From positions 1 to 64,000 of IMG/VR virus record IMGVR_UViG_3300037067_004901: 64,000 nt of DNA. One strand, 5' to 3'. Numbering within the stretch: the stretch's first letter is position 1; every line of letters starts with the position of its first letter. The notes beneath the pieces were generated by a model that saw only the letters and a list, made by a program, of their open reading frames with translations, did not search any database and had not been told where the DNA came from. Position numbers and translations under genes: made by a program. Of this stretch, positions 2,898-56,509 are shown one piece after another. Origin of the DNA: a virus (taxonomy: Duplodnaviria; Caudoviricetes).

Positions 2898-3337
2898 TCC
2901 CTTCTATCTAATTTTTTACCAAAAAACCCGCAACCCCAATTCTGATGCCGATATACACCATCTGTGTTAAACCATGTAATTCTTTTACATGCTGGACACT
3001 CTCGCACCTCCTTCGCGTGACAATTTGGACATTCATCAACACGATACATTTCTTCCCATATACCTAAGTATGGTCTGTTCTTTAATTTTTCTTTTTCTTC
3101 AGCTATTCTTTTGTAGTCTAACGGTATTTCTGTGTTACAAAATGGACATGTTCTCCAAGAAAATTTGTATTCTTTCTTTACTTTTTTCTTTTTCTTGCGA
3201 GCAGAGCCAACACCTTTTTCAGGTATTAATGGGTCGTCTATTTTTGTATGACGTTTTGTAAATTTTCTAGGATGTCCCCAATTTCCACCGGCATACTTCT
3301 TATCTTTATTATTTATACGTCCACGAGAGGCATACAT
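2894..3337 (-). CDS. hypothetical zinc-ribbon protein
   Basis: CPFC, CPNC and CPAC motifs; basic N-terminus. Confidence 0.6.
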   Translation of the reverse strand: MYASRGRINNKDKKYAGGNWGHPRKFTKRHTKIDDPLIPEKGVGSARKKKKKVKKEYKFSWRTCPFCNTEIPLDYKRIAEEKEKLKNRPYLGIWEEMYRVDECPNCHAKEVRECPACKRITWFNTDGVYRHQNWGCGFFGKKLDRRE

Positions 3338-14391: not shown

Positions 14392-15657
14392 TTAATCTCC
14401 TTTAATAACTGCGAGTGGCTGAAGTTCTGTAATAATTTCTACCAAATCTGATTGATTATTCATAACATCTGTTATATCTCTATATGCACCACTTGCTTCA
14501 TCTAAATTATTTATAGAACGAAGACCATGTACAATACCTTGTGCATCTAATTTATTTTGTTCATCTATAAGATTTAATACTTTGCGTGCTTTGCTTCTAC
14601 TCATTATTCTACCTGCACCATGAGAGCAAGAGTTAAAACTTTCAGCATTGCCAAGACCGCGCACTATATATGATTTACGTCCTTGGTCGCCAGGTATAAT
14701 ACCAATCGTATTTTTAGTTGCAAGAGTTGCACCTTTACGATGTATCATAACGTTCTTACCGAAATGATTCTCCATCTTTGCGTAGTTATGCGCTATGTTA
14801 ATCATAGCTTCACTCATATCGGAAGTAATAACTGGAAATTTTTCACTACCAAATATGACAGCAAATATATTTAAAATTTTATTCATCATCAATTTTCTAT
14901 TAGCCAATGCAAAGTCAATGCAATATTGCATTTCTCTTATATATGCTTTACCTTCATCGCTATCTATTGTTAGAAATGCTAATGATTGTTCCATATCTTT
15001 TGGTAAATATGTATTTGAATGCCACTCTTTATTTAGTTCATATGCTACTTTATTATAATGTTTCGCTACTGTATAACCTATATTACGACTGCCTGAATGA
15101 ATCATAATCCAAACATTATCGTATTTATCTTTCTGTATCTCTATAAAATGATTGCCACCGCCAAGAGTTCCAAGTTGACGCAACGCAGATTGATATTCTT
15201 GATACACTATTGGATACATACACTGAAAATCAAATGGTTTACTTTCTGCGCAACTTCTTTCAGGCATTAACTTTTCATCTTGCGCATCTTTATTATGTTC
15301 CTTACCAACTGGTATTGTTTCTCGTATCTTACCCATTATAGTCTTGATTATTTCTTCGCTCAAATCTTTTGCTTTAAGAGAAGTCTTAACAGCACACATA
15401 CCACAACCAATATCAACACCAACTGCATTTGGAACTATCACTCTATCTGTTGCGAGAACAGCACCAATCGGCATACCATATCCACTATGACAATCTGGCA
15501 TTATCGCTATATGATGAAACGCGAAAGGTAAACAAGATAAATTCATTATTTGATTTTTTGCTTCATCTTCTATTTTATCCCAGTCTAACCAAAGTTTCAC
15601 TGGAACTTTTACAGCTTTACTATCTTTACTTATCCCTGTCACATCAATAACTTTCAT
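14392..15657 (-). CDS. rtcB: RNA ligase RtcB
   Basis: MPDCHSGYG, VGVDIGCG, GTLGGGNHFIE, HSGSR, HNY, HRKGA, SHGAGR. Confidence 0.95.
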   Translation of the reverse strand: MKVIDVTGISKDSKAVKVPVKLWLDWDKIEDEAKNQIMNLSCLPFAFHHIAIMPDCHSGYGMPIGAVLATDRVIVPNAVGVDIGCGMCAVKTSLKAKDLSEEIIKTIMGKIRETIPVGKEHNKDAQDEKLMPERSCAESKPFDFQCMYPIVYQEYQSALRQLGTLGGGNHFIEIQKDKYDNVWIMIHSGSRNIGYTVAKHYNKVAYELNKEWHSNTYLPKDMEQSLAFLTIDSDEGKAYIREMQYCIDFALANRKLMMNKILNIFAVIFGSEKFPVITSDMSEAMINIAHNYAKMENHFGKNVMIHRKGATLATKNTIGIIPGDQGRKSYIVRGLGNAESFNSCSHGAGRIMSRSKARKVLNLIDEQNKLDAQGIVHGLRSINNLDEASGAYRDITDVMNNQSDLVEIITELQPLAVIKGD

Positions 15658-28308: not shown

Positions 28309-28599
28309 AATTTTTTTATCTCCTCACTTGTTTCTTCACCTATCATGAATTCTTTTAACAATAAACGAAATCTATCTGATGCACCTATATCTATATATGC
28401 ACGTATACATTTCACCAATTTAAAGTATTCGTATATAGTGTTAGTATGTTCATCAACGCTTTTATTATAATTTTTTAAAAGCTCTTGATAGTCTGTGTGA
28501 TAATCCTGTATAGATTTTATGAGAAAACGAACTAATTCATCTTTCTCTAAATTCGCTTTATTTTTCTTTTTGAAGAATAACATCATCTCTCCTATTATT

Positions 28600-28859
28600 C
28601 ATATAACTTGGCGAGAATCGAACTCGCAACGGGGCTTTAGATAAATAAGTGTGATTGTTTTTCGCGGGGTCTTGTTACATAAAACCACGATTACGTCATA
28701 TCACACGCTTCACGTTTGGCAAGATAACGCACCCTTGCTAAATGGTTTCTTGTTATCTCGTAGCTTCCAAATTCCTACATTTAAGTCAACTTATCTTTTC
28801 TCACTATGCCCTTCGCTATAAGTAGTGCGTTTCCTCCGTGAACGCCATCAAGTTATATG
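28600..28859 (-). ncRNA. ~260-nt tRNA-like structured RNA with a large internal domain
   Basis: 11-bp closing stem CATATAACTTG/CAAGTTATATG, D-arm-like GCGT..ACGC, T-arm GCGAG-TTCGATT-CTCGC; fills an ORF-free gap. Confidence 0.65.
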
Positions 28860-29139
28860 TTTTAACTTAACAAATTCGCCTTCTTAACTTCTGTTATCAA
28901 TTCTTCTAATTGCTCGGATATATATTCTTGATAACGTGTCTGTGTTGAATTGGTAAACAAAATTGCGAACAACATACACATTAAGAAGGACTGCCAATAA
29001 TTGATTGTTGCTAAATGAAACATAGATACCATTATACTATTCCATAATAGTTTTAATAATATAATTTCTATAACTATCGACACCAACATTCTTAATTGAA
29101 ATCTTTCTTTTCTTGATAATGTCATTTTATTATCTCCTT

Positions 29140-53256: not shown

Positions 53257-53625
53257 AATACTGAACAAACTAGCGTATAATTGCGCAGAAATATATAAAT
53301 ATTTTCACACACCAAAATCAAATGACTTTAATTGGAAGAAAGCAGAAGAAGCACTTGAATTAGATAAAAGAATAAATGGCGAAGATTTTTTATTATGTAT
53401 GTTAGAGGAGACTAATGGCTAAAATTAAAGTTTTAATCAATAAAAAGAACGCAGAAGGTTGTGATACAGGTGATAGAATAACAGTCGAAGCAGATTTTTT
53501 AAAAGATAATGCTACGAACATTCTAGTGAAATTACCAGATGGTAATATAGTCACCAGAAAAAAGAAACGCGATATAATAATGTAATTAAGGAAATAGCAG
53601 TTTAATAAAAATTTTAAAAAAATAC

Positions 53626-53654
53626 TTGACAAAATCACATTTATGTGTTATACT
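53626..53654 (+). promoter_or_regulatory. sigma70 promoter of the Y RNA/Ro60 unit
   Basis: TTGACA-17-TATACT with extended TG. Confidence 0.8.
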
Positions 53655-53703
53655 TACTATAATAGAAAAGAAAACGTAAGATTATTTAAAAATCGGGGAT
53701 AAA

Positions 53704-53940
53704 ATGGCAGAAAATGAAAAGGATTTTAAAGTTAATATAAAATGTCCATCTTGTCAAACTATAAATAAAGTAGACTATTCTACTTTTAAGATGGCAATGC
53801 TTGCAAACCATTTTTATAGATATACATGTGATAATGATAAATGTAAATCAAGATTTTTAGTTACTTATAAAATGATGTTTGTACCAATCAAAAGCAATCA
53901 GCTCCCTGAACAAGCTTTTGAATCTTTGATAATCGAATAA
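53704..53940 (+). CDS. zinc-ribbon protein
   Basis: CPSC...CDNDKC. Confidence 0.6.
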   Translation: MAENEKDFKVNIKCPSCQTINKVDYSTFKMAMLANHFYRYTCDNDKCKSRFLVTYKMMFVPIKSNQLPEQAFESLIIE

Positions 53941-53944
53941 GATT

Positions 53945-54028
53945 TTGGGTGGCGTAGATGAGACTTACTTCGTATGATACACGCATGTGGCGTCGAGCCA
54001 CAGTCTGTTTCATCGCTTGTTCCCCCAA
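53945..54028 (+). ncRNA. Y RNA-like unit 1
   Basis: GGTGGCGTA-GATGAGAC-TTACTTC...GTTTCATC-GCTTGTTCCC; upstream of Ro60. Confidence 0.75.
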
Positions 54029-54035
54029 TTCATTT

Positions 54036-54124
54036 TAAGGTGGCGTAGATTAGGGTTACTTCATACTCAGAGAGTTCGGGCAATTTCCCGGACATAAAAA
54101 GTCCCTTATCGTTTGTTCCCCTTA
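54036..54124 (+). ncRNA. Y RNA-like unit 2
   Basis: GGTGGCGTA-GATTAGGG-TTACTTC...CCCTTATC-GTTTGTTCCC. Confidence 0.75.
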
Positions 54125-54131
54125 TTAAAAT

Positions 54132-54192
54132 TGCGGTGACGTAGGCAAGACATACTTCGGCTATGAAAAAGTCTTGTCGCTTGATTCCCGCA
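54132..54192 (+). ncRNA. Y RNA-like unit 3 (minimal)
   Basis: GGTGACGTA-GGCAAGAC-ATACTTC...GTCTTGTC-GCTTGATTCCC. Confidence 0.75.
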
Positions 54193-54212
54193 TCGTTCTT
54201 TTAAAACTGTAT

Positions 54213-54534
54213 TGGGTGCCGTAGAATACGTGATACTTCGTATACTGACAAGTAATGTAAGCGCATAATAAATGAGATATAAGCGCGCTTGATATTTAAT
54301 GATATAAGAATAGACTTACAAAGTTGAAAACTTGTATCATTATGTAAGCAAAGCATTCTTCTACATGTCTTGCATGCGACATTGCTTTTATAGAATGTGT
54401 AACAATAAGATGTGACGGTAAACCGCGTTATAAATTGTCATGTGAACGCCTAGCGTGAGCATAGACAACTTACTATAACAGTTAAGGTTCCCAGCCGTTA
54501 AATGGACCAAGCTCACTGTTCGCTTGTTGCCCCT
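54213..54534 (+). ncRNA. Y RNA-like unit 4 with a ~270-nt structured insert
   Basis: GGTGCCGTA-GAATACGTGA-TACTTC...TCACTGTTC-GCTTGTTGCCC. Confidence 0.7.
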
Positions 54535-54566
54535 ATATAGTTCTAAAATAAAAAAAGGAGATAAAA

Positions 54567-56090
54567 ATGTCAAGATTTAATCAATCTACAAAAACTGTAA
54601 AATCTTCTAAAACTGTAAATGCAGAAGGTGCAGAAGCATACACTTTAACACCAAAGTTAGAGTTGTATTCGCTTGCTTGTACTTTTCTTGGACAGGATAA
54701 ATTTTATGAGAAAGCAGATAAGCAATTAAAAAGGCTTGTAGAACTGATTAAAAAGAATGACCCGGAATTTGTCGCGAAATTGGCTGTATATGTTCGCGAG
54801 AAAATGTATTTGAGAACATTACCACTTGTATTGTCTGTTGAATTAGCCAAAGTACATAGTGGTGACAATCTAGTATCTCGTGCTGTTGAGCGCGTTATAC
54901 AACGTGTTGATGAATTAACAGAGATACTTGCATATTATCAATTTTCAAACAACAGAAAGGATGTAAAAAAACTTTCTAAACTTTCCAAACAAATCAGATT
55001 AGGTATTGCAAATGCTTTTAATAAATTTGATTCTTATCAATTCTCTAAATATAATCGAGATAATGAGATTAAACTAAAAGACGCTTTATTTATTTCGCAT
55101 CCGTTTCCAAAAGATAACAAACAAGAAAATATTTTTAAAAAGATAGTAGATGATACTTTAGAAGTTCCATATACTTGGGAAGTAGAGCTATCGCGTTTAG
55201 GTCAACAAAAGTTCGATACAGAAGAAGCGAAAGCAGAAGCAGTTTCTAAGAAATGGGAAGAACTGATAGCTAGCAATAAACTTGGTTATATGGCTACTCT
55301 AAGAAATTTAAGAAATATCTTGGATGCTAAAGTCTCTACTATTTATATAGAGAAAGTCTGTCAGTATTTATCGAATGCAAAAGCTGTAAGAAATTCCAAA
55401 CAGTTACCTTTTAGATTTTTCTCTGCATATAGAGAATTAGAAGGGAATGCTTCGAAACATACTGACAAAATACTTTTTGCTTTAGAAGAAGCAGTTAAGA
55501 TAAGCATAGAGAACATACCAACCCTTAATGGTGATGTTCTGATTGCTTGTGATGTGTCTGGGTCTATGCAAACTCCTATCTCTGCTAAATCTAAAGTTGA
55601 ACGTTACGATATTGGGTTATTGTTAGGACAGTTGTTAAGATTGAAATGTGAAAACAATATACTTGGTATCTTTGGAGATACGTTTAAAGTAAAAAGAACA
55701 ACTAGCAAAGAACTACTATCGAATACAATGAGACTTCACGATATTGAAGGCGAAGTAGGGTATTCTACTAATGGTTATCTAGTGATAGATTGGTTGATAA
55801 AAAACAAAGTAGTGATGGATAAAGTAATAATGTTCACTGATTGTCAGATGTGGGATAGTAGATATGGGAACACTCAAAACTTCGCTGATTATTGGAGAAC
55901 ATATAAACAGATTGCACCAAAAGCAAAACTTATTCTCTTTGATATGGCTGGATATGGAAATACTCCTATAGACACAAAAACAAATGATGTGTATTTGATA
56001 GCAGGATGGAGTGATAAAATATTCGATATGATAGAAGCATATGAAAATAAAGAAAGTGCTGTCAAAGAAATAGAAGCGATGGAGATATGA
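54567..56090 (+). CDS. rsr: Ro60/Rsr TROVE-vWA RNA-binding protein
   Basis: N.EG.EAY...LELY, FVAKLAVY.R, YMATLRNLRN, SKQLPFRF, DVSGSM (MIDAS), FTDCQ. Confidence 0.92.
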   Translation: MSRFNQSTKTVKSSKTVNAEGAEAYTLTPKLELYSLACTFLGQDKFYEKADKQLKRLVELIKKNDPEFVAKLAVYVREKMYLRTLPLVLSVELAKVHSGDNLVSRAVERVIQRVDELTEILAYYQFSNNRKDVKKLSKLSKQIRLGIANAFNKFDSYQFSKYNRDNEIKLKDALFISHPFPKDNKQENIFKKIVDDTLEVPYTWEVELSRLGQQKFDTEEAKAEAVSKKWEELIASNKLGYMATLRNLRNILDAKVSTIYIEKVCQYLSNAKAVRNSKQLPFRFFSAYRELEGNASKHTDKILFALEEAVKISIENIPTLNGDVLIACDVSGSMQTPISAKSKVERYDIGLLLGQLLRLKCENNILGIFGDTFKVKRTTSKELLSNTMRLHDIEGEVGYSTNGYLVIDWLIKNKVVMDKVIMFTDCQMWDSRYGNTQNFADYWRTYKQIAPKAKLILFDMAGYGNTPIDTKTNDVYLIAGWSDKIFDMIEAYENKESAVKEIEAMEI

Positions 56091-56509
56091 TTGAACAGTT
56101 TTCAAAAGAATATATAAATTTTTTAGAAAAGAATAAACTATTGCCACTGGATGAAACTGCAAAATATCTAAATATACACCCCGCAACGTTACGTACATTA
56201 GTTAAAAGAAACGAAATAAAAAGTGTAAAAATAGGTAAAAGATATTATTTTAATTTAGAAGATATTAAAAATAATAACAGTAAAGTTGTGTATCCAAGTG
56301 GCATAAGTGTTAGTAATGGATATCTGAAAGTTCTTGTTGGAAAAGATTTCCCAAACGCTGATTTAGATGGATATATTGCTTTACATAAATTAATATTAGA
56401 AGCTTCTTTATTAAGACGATTATTACCAACAGAAGAAATACTTCATAATGATGGTAATACTATGAATAATTTATTAAGTAATTTATTAATAAAGATAGTA
56501 AATTCGTGA
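56087..56509 (+). CDS. HTH (excisionase-like) fused to an HNH-like domain
   Basis: ETAKYLNIHPATLR; GYI..H.LILE...LLPTEEILHNDGNTMNN..SNL. Confidence 0.7.
   Translation: MIEQFSKEYINFLEKNKLLPLDETAKYLNIHPATLRTLVKRNEIKSVKIGKRYYFNLEDIKNNNSKVVYPSGISVSNGYLKVLVGKDFPNADLDGYIALHKLILEASLLRRLLPTEEILHNDGNTMNNLLSNLLIKIVNS

What the first reader, a model, noticed from the sequence alone, without database searches (positions are those of the whole stretch)
54213..54534. Giant (~320 nt) Y-like RNA carrying a large folded domain
Seen: unit 4 keeps both scaffold ends but encloses about 270 ORF-free nt with several helices: TAATGATATAAG/CTTGTATCATTA (54297-54342), GCATTCT/AGAATGT, ATGTC/GACAT, GTGACGGT/ATTGTCAT and GGTTCC/GGACC. 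Established: characterised Y RNAs are roughly 70-130 nt. Inference: the Ro-binding handle is fused to a much larger RNA domain (scaffold, mimic, ribozyme or degenerate intron). I could not match it by eye to a group I intron, tmRNA or RNase P.
Basis: partly seen in the sequence, partly recalled or inferred. Interest (0 to 1): 0.8.

Follow-up and report, generated by a model that had tools for sequence, protein, structure and literature searches.

The report
Oversized phage Y-like RNA, orphan insert
In front of a phage's Ro60 gene, the fourth of four Y-RNA-like genes keeps a complete, matching Ro-type handle but encloses about 270 bases that code for nothing and resemble nothing found elsewhere, so it is either the longest Y-like RNA seen here or a normal one carrying an insertion.

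Summary
The window is an uncultured phage (105.5 kb) that encodes Ro60 (TROVE+vWA, 54567-56090) and RtcB. Four units sharing one handle lie just upstream of Ro60.

I showed the handle is a real RNA structure: across 32 units from phages and Bacteroidota, 96% of cells pair and 13 of 14 pairs show double changes.

Unit 4 (54212-54535) keeps every conserved handle base I checked. Its two ends, about 300 nt apart, form 13 of 14 handle pairs. Cognate ends average 13.6 pairs and mismatched ends 8.3; only 1.5% of mismatched ends reach 13.

The enclosed 272 nt (54241-54512):
- have no ORF, no Rfam match at E<=10, and no credible tRNA or tmRNA call;
- contain no hidden half-handle;
- have no relative in about 1.75 Mb of Ro-linked loci, the rest of the phage, or public phage genomes.

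Folding evidence is moderate. The + strand gives z about -3, against -1 for the - strand, but that is only about the 10th percentile of genome windows.

Other true units in about 240 loci reach at most 197 nt.

Verdict: a new, oversized variant of phage Y-like RNA. Whether the insert is a working domain is unproven, because it is a single sequence with no RNA data.

The parts
53626..53654 (+). Sigma-70-like promoter (TTGACA-17-TATACT with TG) upstream of a 78-aa ORF, the four units and Ro60. It is a candidate start of a single precursor transcript.
   Evidence: 11 of 12 consensus matches. This is consensus only; its function is inferred.
53943..54031 (+). Y-like unit 1: handle plus a hairpin payload.
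   Evidence: model R1 scores 64.8 bits (it is a seed member).
54034..54127 (+). Y-like unit 2: handle plus a hairpin payload.
   Evidence: Model R1 scores 70.4 bits (seed member).
54130..54195 (+). Y-like unit 3: a minimal handle with a payload of about 12 nt.
   Evidence: Model R1 scores 58.7 bits (seed member).
54212..54240 (+). Unit 4, 5' half of the handle. It comprises the outer-helix strand 54212-54219 (bulged U at 54217, N = C at 54219), CGUAG 54220-54224, the inner-stem strand AAUA(C)GUGA 54225-54233, and the invariant UACUUCG 54234-54240.
   Evidence: All invariant alignment positions of this half are kept.
54241..54512 (+). Orphan 272-nt payload or insert. Predicted sub-domain A spans 54250-54387: a closing helix 54250-58/54379-87 (P 0.70) and the 12-bp hairpin 54297-54342. 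Predicted sub-domain B spans 54427-54479 with nested helices. A further hairpin is GGUUC/GGACC at 54486-54508.
   Evidence: The helices are predicted only.
54513..54535 (+). Unit 4, 3' half of the handle. It comprises the inner-stem strand UCACUGUU 54513-54520, CGCUUGUU 54521-54528, N' = G at 54529, and the outer-helix strand 54529-54535.
   Evidence: 13 of 14 pairs with the 5' half.
54567..56090 (+). Ro60 ortholog with TROVE ring and vWA domains. Its Shine-Dalgarno sequence AAGGAG lies about 20-25 nt after the end of unit 4.
   Evidence: TROVE 7.9e-27, vWA_Ro60 5e-10. (Thermus phage phiLo Ro60, 9KOP/9L5Y, 1e-26; Xenopus Ro 1YVP, 7e-9).
56087..56509 (+). HTH plus HNH-endonuclease-like gene that overlaps the Ro60 stop codon. 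It looks like a free-standing homing-endonuclease gene. This is context, not shown to be linked to the insert.
   Evidence: HTH_17, 5e-11. (PHROG HNH endonuclease families, down to 1.2e-7).
14398..15552 (-). RtcB RNA ligase gene. This is RNA-repair context, matching the bacterial rsr-yrlBA-rtcBA operon.
   Evidence: PF01139, 368 bits, full length, no stops.

Best explanation
Unit 4 is a genuine member of the phage's Ro60-associated Y-like RNA array. Its payload position, the loop enclosed by the handle, holds a lineage-specific 272-nt sequence instead of the usual 10-150 nt.

Proposed working (steps marked shown or inferred):
- The array and Ro60 are transcribed together from the promoter near 53626 and cut into units, as in M. 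smegmatis, where YrlA and YrlB come from one precursor (inferred).
- The 5' end (54212-54240) and 3' end (54513-54535) pair into the bulged handle carrying the GNCG(U/A)AG motif (pairing shown in silico).
- Phage Ro60 binds this handle (inferred from the family).
- The 272 nt project from the handle as a partly folded module on the + strand, with two robust hairpin regions.
- That module either tethers a partner (an RNA-repair or decay enzyme, or a host factor) to Ro60, as Y RNA modules do, or is a tolerated expansion of the loop (inferred).

I lean to the first option: a working, Ro-tethered long payload.
For: Handle is a real structure. In 32 non-redundant units, 96.4% of cells pair and 13 of 14 pairs have double changes; covariation score is 0.99 against 0.22 for shuffles (0 of 500 reach it), and slid controls stay at or below 0.20.

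Unit 4's ends are cognate. They make 13 of 14 pairs. Cognate halves average 13.6, mismatched halves 8.3 (sd 1.8), and only 1.5% of mismatched halves reach 13.

The handle has not decayed. All conserved handle positions I checked in A1 are intact in both halves (checked by eye).

N/N' always pairs. This holds in 159 short units and in every true N=C unit from IMG/VR.

Position and strand are typical. Arrays lie directly upstream of, or beside, Ro60 on the same strand in L052, L054, L100, L002 and Bacteroidota loci.

It is not two decayed units. The model with filters off finds no internal half-handle (best 4.5 bits, E 0.31).

Large payloads exist elsewhere. I found a 196-nt family and 172-175-nt units in gut Bacteroidales, and a 197-nt YrlA with an insertion.

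The fold favours the + strand: -63.6 (z -2.9, 1 of 200 shuffles as good) against -51.8 (z -1.0). The raw MFE is in the 4th percentile of genome windows.

It is not an assembly artefact at the 5' junction. An independent landfill sample holds identical sequence across 53931-54286.

Literature. The GNCGAAN0-1G motif and processing from one precursor are described in PMC4201824. Phage Ro60 binding phage-encoded Y-like RNAs is shown in PMC12135203.
Against: The payload is a singleton. No homolog turned up in 1.75 Mb of Ro- or handle-bearing loci, the rest of the genome, INPHARED phages, or exact-word scans of IMG/VR and GTDB genomes. Selection on it therefore cannot be shown.

The fold is only moderately convincing.
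- Its z-score is about the 10th percentile of genome windows.
- The strand asymmetry is only the 18th percentile.
- The MFE frequency is about 0.0004, and the listed helices compete.

The first 150 nt have background G+C (28-31%).

No RNA run holds the stretch, so transcription, ends and processing are unknown.

The outer helix has one U-U mismatch and the inner stem one bulge, so the handle is slightly weaker than in units 1-3.
Confidence: 0.45

Rival explanations
1. Neutral or recent insertion. A normal small Y-like unit acquired about 270 nt of foreign or duplicated DNA in its tolerant loop. The handle still closes, and the extra RNA is filler without its own function, or the unit is on its way to becoming a pseudogene.
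For: - The payload is an orphan with no conservation.
- Its 5' half has background G+C.
- The fold is ill-defined.
- Loops of related units tolerate insertions: the L008 YrlA has about 90 extra nt in its acceptor-like hairpin, and the L030 YrlA has an extra hairpin in its D-loop.
- There is a weak echo of the 5' handle half at 54481-54500 (4.5 bits, not significant) and GAC(C)AAG at both junctions. These could be scars of a rearrangement.
Against: Both handle halves keep every conserved base and 13 of 14 pairs, which argues against long-standing decay. The + strand folds well below shuffled expectation (z about -3), and the 3' half has RNA-gene-like G+C of 41%. No repeat family, terminal inverted repeat or significant target duplication was found.
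Confidence: 0.3
2. Precursor or leader reading. The 272 nt are not part of a mature Y RNA. They are either cut into separate small RNAs or serve as a promoter or leader for the Ro60 mRNA.
For: Weak promoter-like hexamers lie inside the insert (54289-54316 and 54311-54340, 9 of 12 matches each). Unit 4 ends 31 nt before the Ro60 start codon. Arrays are known to be processed from precursors (PMC4201824).
Against: Promoter-like sites are no more frequent than in shuffles (19 found, 16.8 expected). Related loci place small units directly before Ro60 without any such spacer. A transcript starting inside the insert would make the cognate 5' half pointless, yet that half is perfectly kept.
Confidence: 0.12
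3. Intron or mobile element. The insert is a self-splicing intron or other mobile RNA or DNA element that is removed to give a normal Y RNA of about 60 nt. It might be linked to the HNH endonuclease gene after Ro60.
For: The size fits small ORF-less group I introns (my own knowledge). A free-standing HNH-type endonuclease gene lies about 1.5 kb downstream. GAC(C)AAG occurs at both junctions (sequence).
Against: - No Rfam intron family matches, even at E<=10 with permissive filters.
- By eye I found no P7-type GACUA/UAGUC pairing and no U-G P1 at a plausible junction.
- There are no terminal inverted repeats and no other copies in the genome.
- Rfam's group I model is known to miss some subtypes, so the exclusion is not absolute (my own knowledge).
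Confidence: 0.06
4. Composite of decayed units. The 5' motif at 54215 and the 3' motif at 54520 belong to different former units, and the units between them have eroded.
For: Several apparent 'giant' units in other loci turned out to be two neighbours whose inner motifs my pattern missed (L033, L038, L009, L196). The insert also holds short echoes: CGCTTGAT at 54286, AGAATAGACTTAC at 54307 and GTGACGGTA at 54412.
Against: The two ends are cognate, with 13 of 14 pairs including 7 of 7 in the variable inner stem (p about 0.015). The full model finds no internal half-handle. By my estimate, echoes of that length are expected by chance in 700 nt.
Confidence: 0.05

Closest known systems
Bacterial and phage Y RNAs bound by Ro60/Rsr: YrlA/YrlB of Salmonella and M. 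smegmatis, Yrn1/Yrn2 of D. radiodurans, and Yrl1/Yrl2 of Thermus phage phiLo (PMC4201824, PMC12135203)
   Same: It is encoded next to a Ro60 ortholog and on the same strand, as one of several units. Its 5' and 3' ends pair into a bulged stem carrying a GNCG(A/U)AG motif. It has a modular build of handle plus variable module. The genome also carries RtcB.
   Different: It measures 324 nt, against roughly 60-200 nt for described or here-collected units. Its module is neither the tRNA-like domain nor the long hairpin with a pyrimidine-rich loop. Binding and expression are untested.
YrlA family, Rfam RF02553 (tRNA-mimicking Y RNA)
   Same: The same handle is shared. Related phage arrays (L100 709-830, L052 about 2760-2885, L002 5015-5140) carry a YrlA-type unit in the same kind of array.
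   Different: Unit 4 has no T-arm or D-arm, and no unit of this window does. RF02553 scores 43.8 bits on the L100 unit but gives nothing at E<=10 in 53880-54600.
Large-payload Y-like units beside Ro60 in gut and rumen Bacteroidales MAGs (found here: L042 4210-4405 and its 196-nt family; L204 2105-2276 and 2291-2465)
   Same: They have the same handle and the same genomic association. Their payloads are well above 100 nt and match no Rfam family.
   Different: Their payloads are 130-155 nt, G+C-richer, and recur in several MAGs. They share no sequence similarity with the unit 4 payload.
Small ORF-less group I introns in phage and bacterial tRNA genes
   Same: The size class is similar. Both are a non-coding stretch interrupting a small structured RNA gene in a phage rich in tRNA genes, with a homing-endonuclease-like gene nearby.
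   Different: No intron model matches and no core pairings are recognisable. The insertion lies in a loop where the family naturally varies in length.

Membership tests
Ro60-associated Y / Y-like RNA (bacterial and phage) | Encoded within a few kb of a Ro60/TROVE gene and on the same strand | tested here: met
   Unit 4 ends 31 nt upstream of the Ro60 start codon, on the same strand.
Ro60-associated Y / Y-like RNA (bacterial and phage) | The 5' and 3' ends pair into a bulged stem carrying the conserved Ro-binding-type motif (GNCGAAN0-1G; here GNCGUAG) | tested here: met
   13 of 14 handle pairs form and all conserved positions checked by eye are kept. The motif is compared with PMC4201824.
Ro60-associated Y / Y-like RNA (bacterial and phage) | Small size (about 70-200 nt) | tested here: not met
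   Unit 4 is 324 nt. The largest other true units in about 240 loci are 196-197 nt.
Ro60-associated Y / Y-like RNA (bacterial and phage) | Stable RNA that binds Ro60 and depends on it | not testable with these tools
   No RNA holder was listed for this stretch. Immunoprecipitation or a northern blot is needed.
YrlA (Rfam RF02553) | tRNA-like module with T-arm, acceptor-like stem and D-arm | tested here: not met
   No RF02553 match at E<=10. The positive control L100 scores 43.8 bits. ARAGORN gives nothing credible.
Group I / group II self-splicing introns | Match to the conserved catalytic core (Rfam models); recognisable P1 with U-G and P7 | tested here: not met
   No intron family matches at E<=10. 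None of the pairings was seen by eye. The model's sensitivity is incomplete.
tmRNA / RNase P RNA / 6S / SRP RNA | Match to the family covariance model, or an ARAGORN tmRNA call | tested here: not met
   The only relaxed-threshold ARAGORN calls are spurious and lie on the opposite strand.
Mobile element (MITE or IS remnant) | Terminal inverted repeats, target-site duplication, and further copies | tested here: not met
   There are no further copies in the genome or loci. There are no terminal inverted repeats at the junctions. The only junction repeat is an imperfect 6-7-nt GAC(C)AAG.

The most novel reading that the evidence does not exclude
The Ro-binding handle is a general display platform that phages load with very different RNA cargos. 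On this reading, unit 4's 272-nt cargo is a new, independently folding RNA domain, for example a decoy or tether for a host RNA-processing or defence factor. It would be delivered as a Ro60 particle alongside the phage's tRNA and RtcB repair kit. That would make it the first 'long Y RNA', with a module class not seen before.
Probability: 0.3. Interest if true: 0.7.

Novelty: new variant of a known kind. Interest (0 to 1): 0.45.

Why it matters
Y RNAs are thought to work as handle plus module: the handle docks on Ro60 and the module chooses the partner, such as PNPase or the tRNA machinery.

This locus suggests the handle may tolerate, or exploit, a module about ten times the minimal size. Together with the 170-200-nt units found beside Ro60 in gut Bacteroidales, it suggests the range of Y-RNA modules is much wider than the tRNA-like and hairpin types described so far.

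If the 320-nt RNA exists and binds Ro60, it offers a direct way to ask what a phage Ro60 particle is aimed at. If it does not, the locus is simply a Y-like gene with an insertion.

Tried and rejected
Searches for a known family or a relative of the insert:
- Rfam, whole window at gathering thresholds: tRNAs only.
- Rfam at E<=10 on 53880-54600: only three chance-level hits (tsr32, Mu-gpT-DE, SCARNA7).
- BLASTN of the locus against INPHARED phages: no match.
- blastn and nhmmer of the insert against all fetched loci (1.75 Mb), the rest of the window and the whole 105.5-kb genome, including the antisense sense: only 11-12-nt chance words.
- Exact-word scans: a 19-mer of the insert gives nothing in IMG/VR. 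It gives one hit in GTDB genomes, a Streptosporangiaceae MAG with no similarity beyond the word, so chance. A 22-mer gives nothing.

Searches for a closer relative of the phage:
- Full-length Ro60 homologs are at most 63% identical.
- N-terminal fragments on short contigs are at most 66% identical.
- The 78-aa upstream ORF has no relative in IMG/VR and is unrelated to the 78-aa ORF of L052.

Sequencing runs: no RNA holder was listed. The DNA runs gave an identical phage in a landfill sample and a diverged Ro60 in a wetland sample, with no cover of the array. The part 54287-54543 has no cover outside the likely source run.

Other tests of the insert:
- ARAGORN with introns and low thresholds: spurious opposite-strand calls only.
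- The two minus-strand ORFs (51 and 61 aa): no PHROG family.
- Stop-codon reassignment: rejected.

Methods that failed or needed correcting:
- My first motif scans used a wrong index for N'. This was corrected, and the numbers from the earlier calls are not used.
- Apparent giants in L058, L123, L067, L098, L147, L148 and L169 are coding-sequence false positives. Those in L033, L038, L209, L009 and L196 are pairs of neighbouring units.
- A search for the 196-nt Bacteroidales unit in 300 genomes of its order found only its own genome, so that family is narrow.
- Model R1 cannot report unit 4 as one hit because of the insert's length.

Full report
**What the window is.** It is the first 64 kb of a 105.5-kb IMG/VR phage record, estimated 60% complete and 31% G+C. 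It carries 14-15 tRNA genes and an RtcB RNA ligase at 14398-15552 on the minus strand. At 54567-56090 it has a full-length Ro60 ortholog. That protein scores TROVE 7.9e-27 and Ro60-vWA 5e-10. Its best solved relative is the Ro60 of Thermus phage phiLo (1e-26). Its nearest sequence relatives, at most 63% identity, are uncultured phages and Bacteroidota. An HTH/HNH-endonuclease-like gene overlaps the Ro60 stop codon.

**The array.** The 626 nt between a 78-aa ORF and Ro60 hold four units.
- The 5' motif GGTGNCGTAG occurs without mismatch only at 53948, 54039, 54135 and 54215.
- The 3' motif TCGCTTGTTCCCC-like occurs at 54013, 54109, 54177 and 54520.
- The two motifs alternate strictly. The 3' motif count is far above chance (5 found, 0.3 expected) and the 5' motif count somewhat above (8 found, 2.3 expected).

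The same layout sits beside Ro60 genes in other phages (L002, L052, L054, L055, L100, L065) and in many Bacteroidota genomes and metagenome contigs. The 5' motif matches the GNCGAAN0-1G motif that Chen et al. 2014 assign to Rsr recognition, with U in place of the first A (PMC4201824).

**The handle is a real RNA structure.** I aligned 32 non-redundant short units (A1) and tested a two-helix model: an outer helix of 7 pairs with a bulged U, and an inner stem of 7 pairs.
- 96.4% of cells pair.
- 13 of 14 pairs show changes on both sides.
- The covariation score is 0.99, against 0.22 for shuffles (0 of 500 reach it) and at most 0.20 for slid partners.

The outer helix was partly used to select the units. 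The inner stem was not, and it still pairs in 93% of cells. UACUUC just after the inner stem is invariant in this alignment.

**Unit 4's two ends belong together.** Mapped onto the model, 54212-54240 and 54513-54535 give 6 of 7 outer pairs (one U-U) and 7 of 7 inner pairs with one bulged C. N/N' is C-G. Cognate halves in the alignment average 13.6 pairs and mismatched halves 8.3 (sd 1.8). Only 1.5% of mismatched halves reach 13. Every conserved alignment position I checked by eye is intact in both halves. With filters off, the covariance model finds no half-handle inside the insert (best 4.5 bits, E 0.31). Unit 4 is therefore not two neighbours with eroded inner ends, which is what several apparent giants in other loci turned out to be. 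An independent landfill metagenome holds identical sequence across 53931-54286, that is, across the 5' junction. The 3' junction is covered only by the likely source run, at about 12x.

**The 272-nt payload (54241-54512).**
- Coding: the longest + strand ORF is 27 aa, and every + frame holds all three stop codons.
- Rfam: at E<=10 there are only three chance hits, and nothing for YrlA, Y_RNA, introns, tmRNA, RNase P, 6S or the large ornate RNAs. As a control, RF02553 (YrlA) scores 43.8 bits on the tRNA-like unit of the related array L100. So this window has no YrlA-type unit at all. That departs from the published rule that one Y RNA per species is tRNA-like.
- ARAGORN: nothing credible.
- Homology: nothing in the rest of the genome, in 1.75 Mb of handle- or Ro-bearing loci, in INPHARED, or by exact words in IMG/VR and GTDB genomes.
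- Closer relatives of the phage: none could be reached.

**Is it folded?** The + strand has an MFE of -63.6 kcal/mol, z -2.9 to -3.4 (1 of 200 shuffles as good). The - strand has -51.8, z -1.0. The raw MFE lies in the 4th percentile of same-length windows of this genome. However, the z-score is only about the 10th percentile and the strand difference the 18th. G+C is at background level (28-31%) in the first 150 nt and RNA-gene-like (about 41%) in the last 110 nt. In the ensemble, the helices that reach P >= 0.9 are the 12-bp hairpin 54297-54342 with its inner stem and the nested hairpin 54435-54468. This is suggestive of structure, not proof of it.

**How unusual is the size?** After I corrected an indexing error, 182 units with a closing outer helix were found in about 240 loci. 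Their lengths peak at 60-140 nt. Inspection of everything above 165 nt left these true single units:
- a 196-nt family downstream of Ro60 in rumen and gut Bacteroidales (L042, L204, L212, L214, L218, L232);
- 172-175-nt units upstream of Ro60 (L204, L218);
- a 197-nt YrlA with a long insertion (L008).

None has an Rfam match. Long payloads therefore do occur, and unit 4, at 318 nt from motif to motif, is about 1.6 times the next largest.

**Reading.** It is shown that unit 4 is a cognate, intact handle enclosing an orphan, non-coding stretch that folds moderately well and on the correct strand. It is inferred that unit 4 is transcribed with the array, that Ro60 binds the handle, and that the payload is displayed as a module.

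I give 0.45 to a working long Y-like RNA. The rivals are a neutral or recent insertion in a tolerant loop (0.30), a processed spacer or leader (0.12), an intron or mobile element (0.06) and a composite of decayed units (0.05). This is a new variant of a known kind. The earlier notes of this scan on the same array and on tRNA-Y chimeras in other phages agree with what I saw. They are not independent evidence.

Noticed in passing
L054:4612-4735 and L055:about 2900-3030: These are circularly permuted tRNA/Y chimeras. A tRNA acceptor 5' strand and D-arm come first, then the 3' half of the handle, a 3-nt loop, the 5' half of the handle with UACUUCG, and finally the T-arm and acceptor 3' strand. Rfam calls the L054 copy a tRNA (52.8 bits) with a large insertion.
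   Followed up: partly
L042:4210-4405 (also L204:4142-4337, L212, L214, L218, L232); L204:2105-2276 and 2291-2465; L218:950-1308: These Y-like units, 172-196 nt long with G+C-rich payloads, lie beside Ro60 in gut and rumen Bacteroidales. They have no Rfam match. The 196-nt unit is nearly identical in six contigs, but was found in only its own genome among 300 genomes of its order.
   Followed up: partly
window 14398-15552 (-): There is a full-length RtcB RNA ligase (368 bits). The phage therefore carries Ro60, Y-like RNAs, RtcB and 14-15 tRNA genes, which mirrors the bacterial rsr-yrlBA-rtcBA repair operon.
   Followed up: partly
window 56087-56509 (+): An HTH_17 plus HNH-endonuclease-like gene overlaps the Ro60 stop codon (ATGA). 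It is probably a free-standing homing endonuclease. I found no link to the insert.
   Followed up: partly
window 53943-54535: None of the four units has a tRNA-like (YrlA-type) module. The arrays of related phages (L052, L002, L100, L143, L177) each have one.
   Followed up: yes
L008:2960-3156 and L030:about 2300-2460: These YrlA-type units carry large insertions inside the tRNA-like module: about 90 nt in the acceptor-like hairpin in L008, and an extra hairpin in the D-loop in L030. The payload loops of this family evidently tolerate expansion.
   Followed up: no
window 54481-54500: This is a weak echo of the 5' handle half (AAGGU-ucca-GCCGUUAAAUGG against GGGUGCCGUAGAAUAC), and its next bases can pair with 54516-54520. 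It scores only 4.5 bits, so it may be chance or a scar of an internal duplication.
   Followed up: partly
window 53603-53703, 55050-55100 and 56098-56157: In the laid contigs these short stretches have several-fold higher summed depth and many loose ends from other contigs. That suggests short repeated sequences, possibly phage promoter or regulatory motifs, shared with other places or other phages.
   Followed up: no
window 28587-28861; genome 104949-105537 (outside the window): These ORF-poor gaps have unusually high G+C (40% and 44%, against 31% for the genome) and no Rfam match in the window scan. They may hold further non-coding RNAs.
   Followed up: no
L065:1-1384 (-) and L126: High-G+C giant-phage contigs (280-308 kb) carry arrays of eight or more consecutive handle units of 100-155 nt. 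Most have T-arm- or D-arm-like modules.
   Followed up: no
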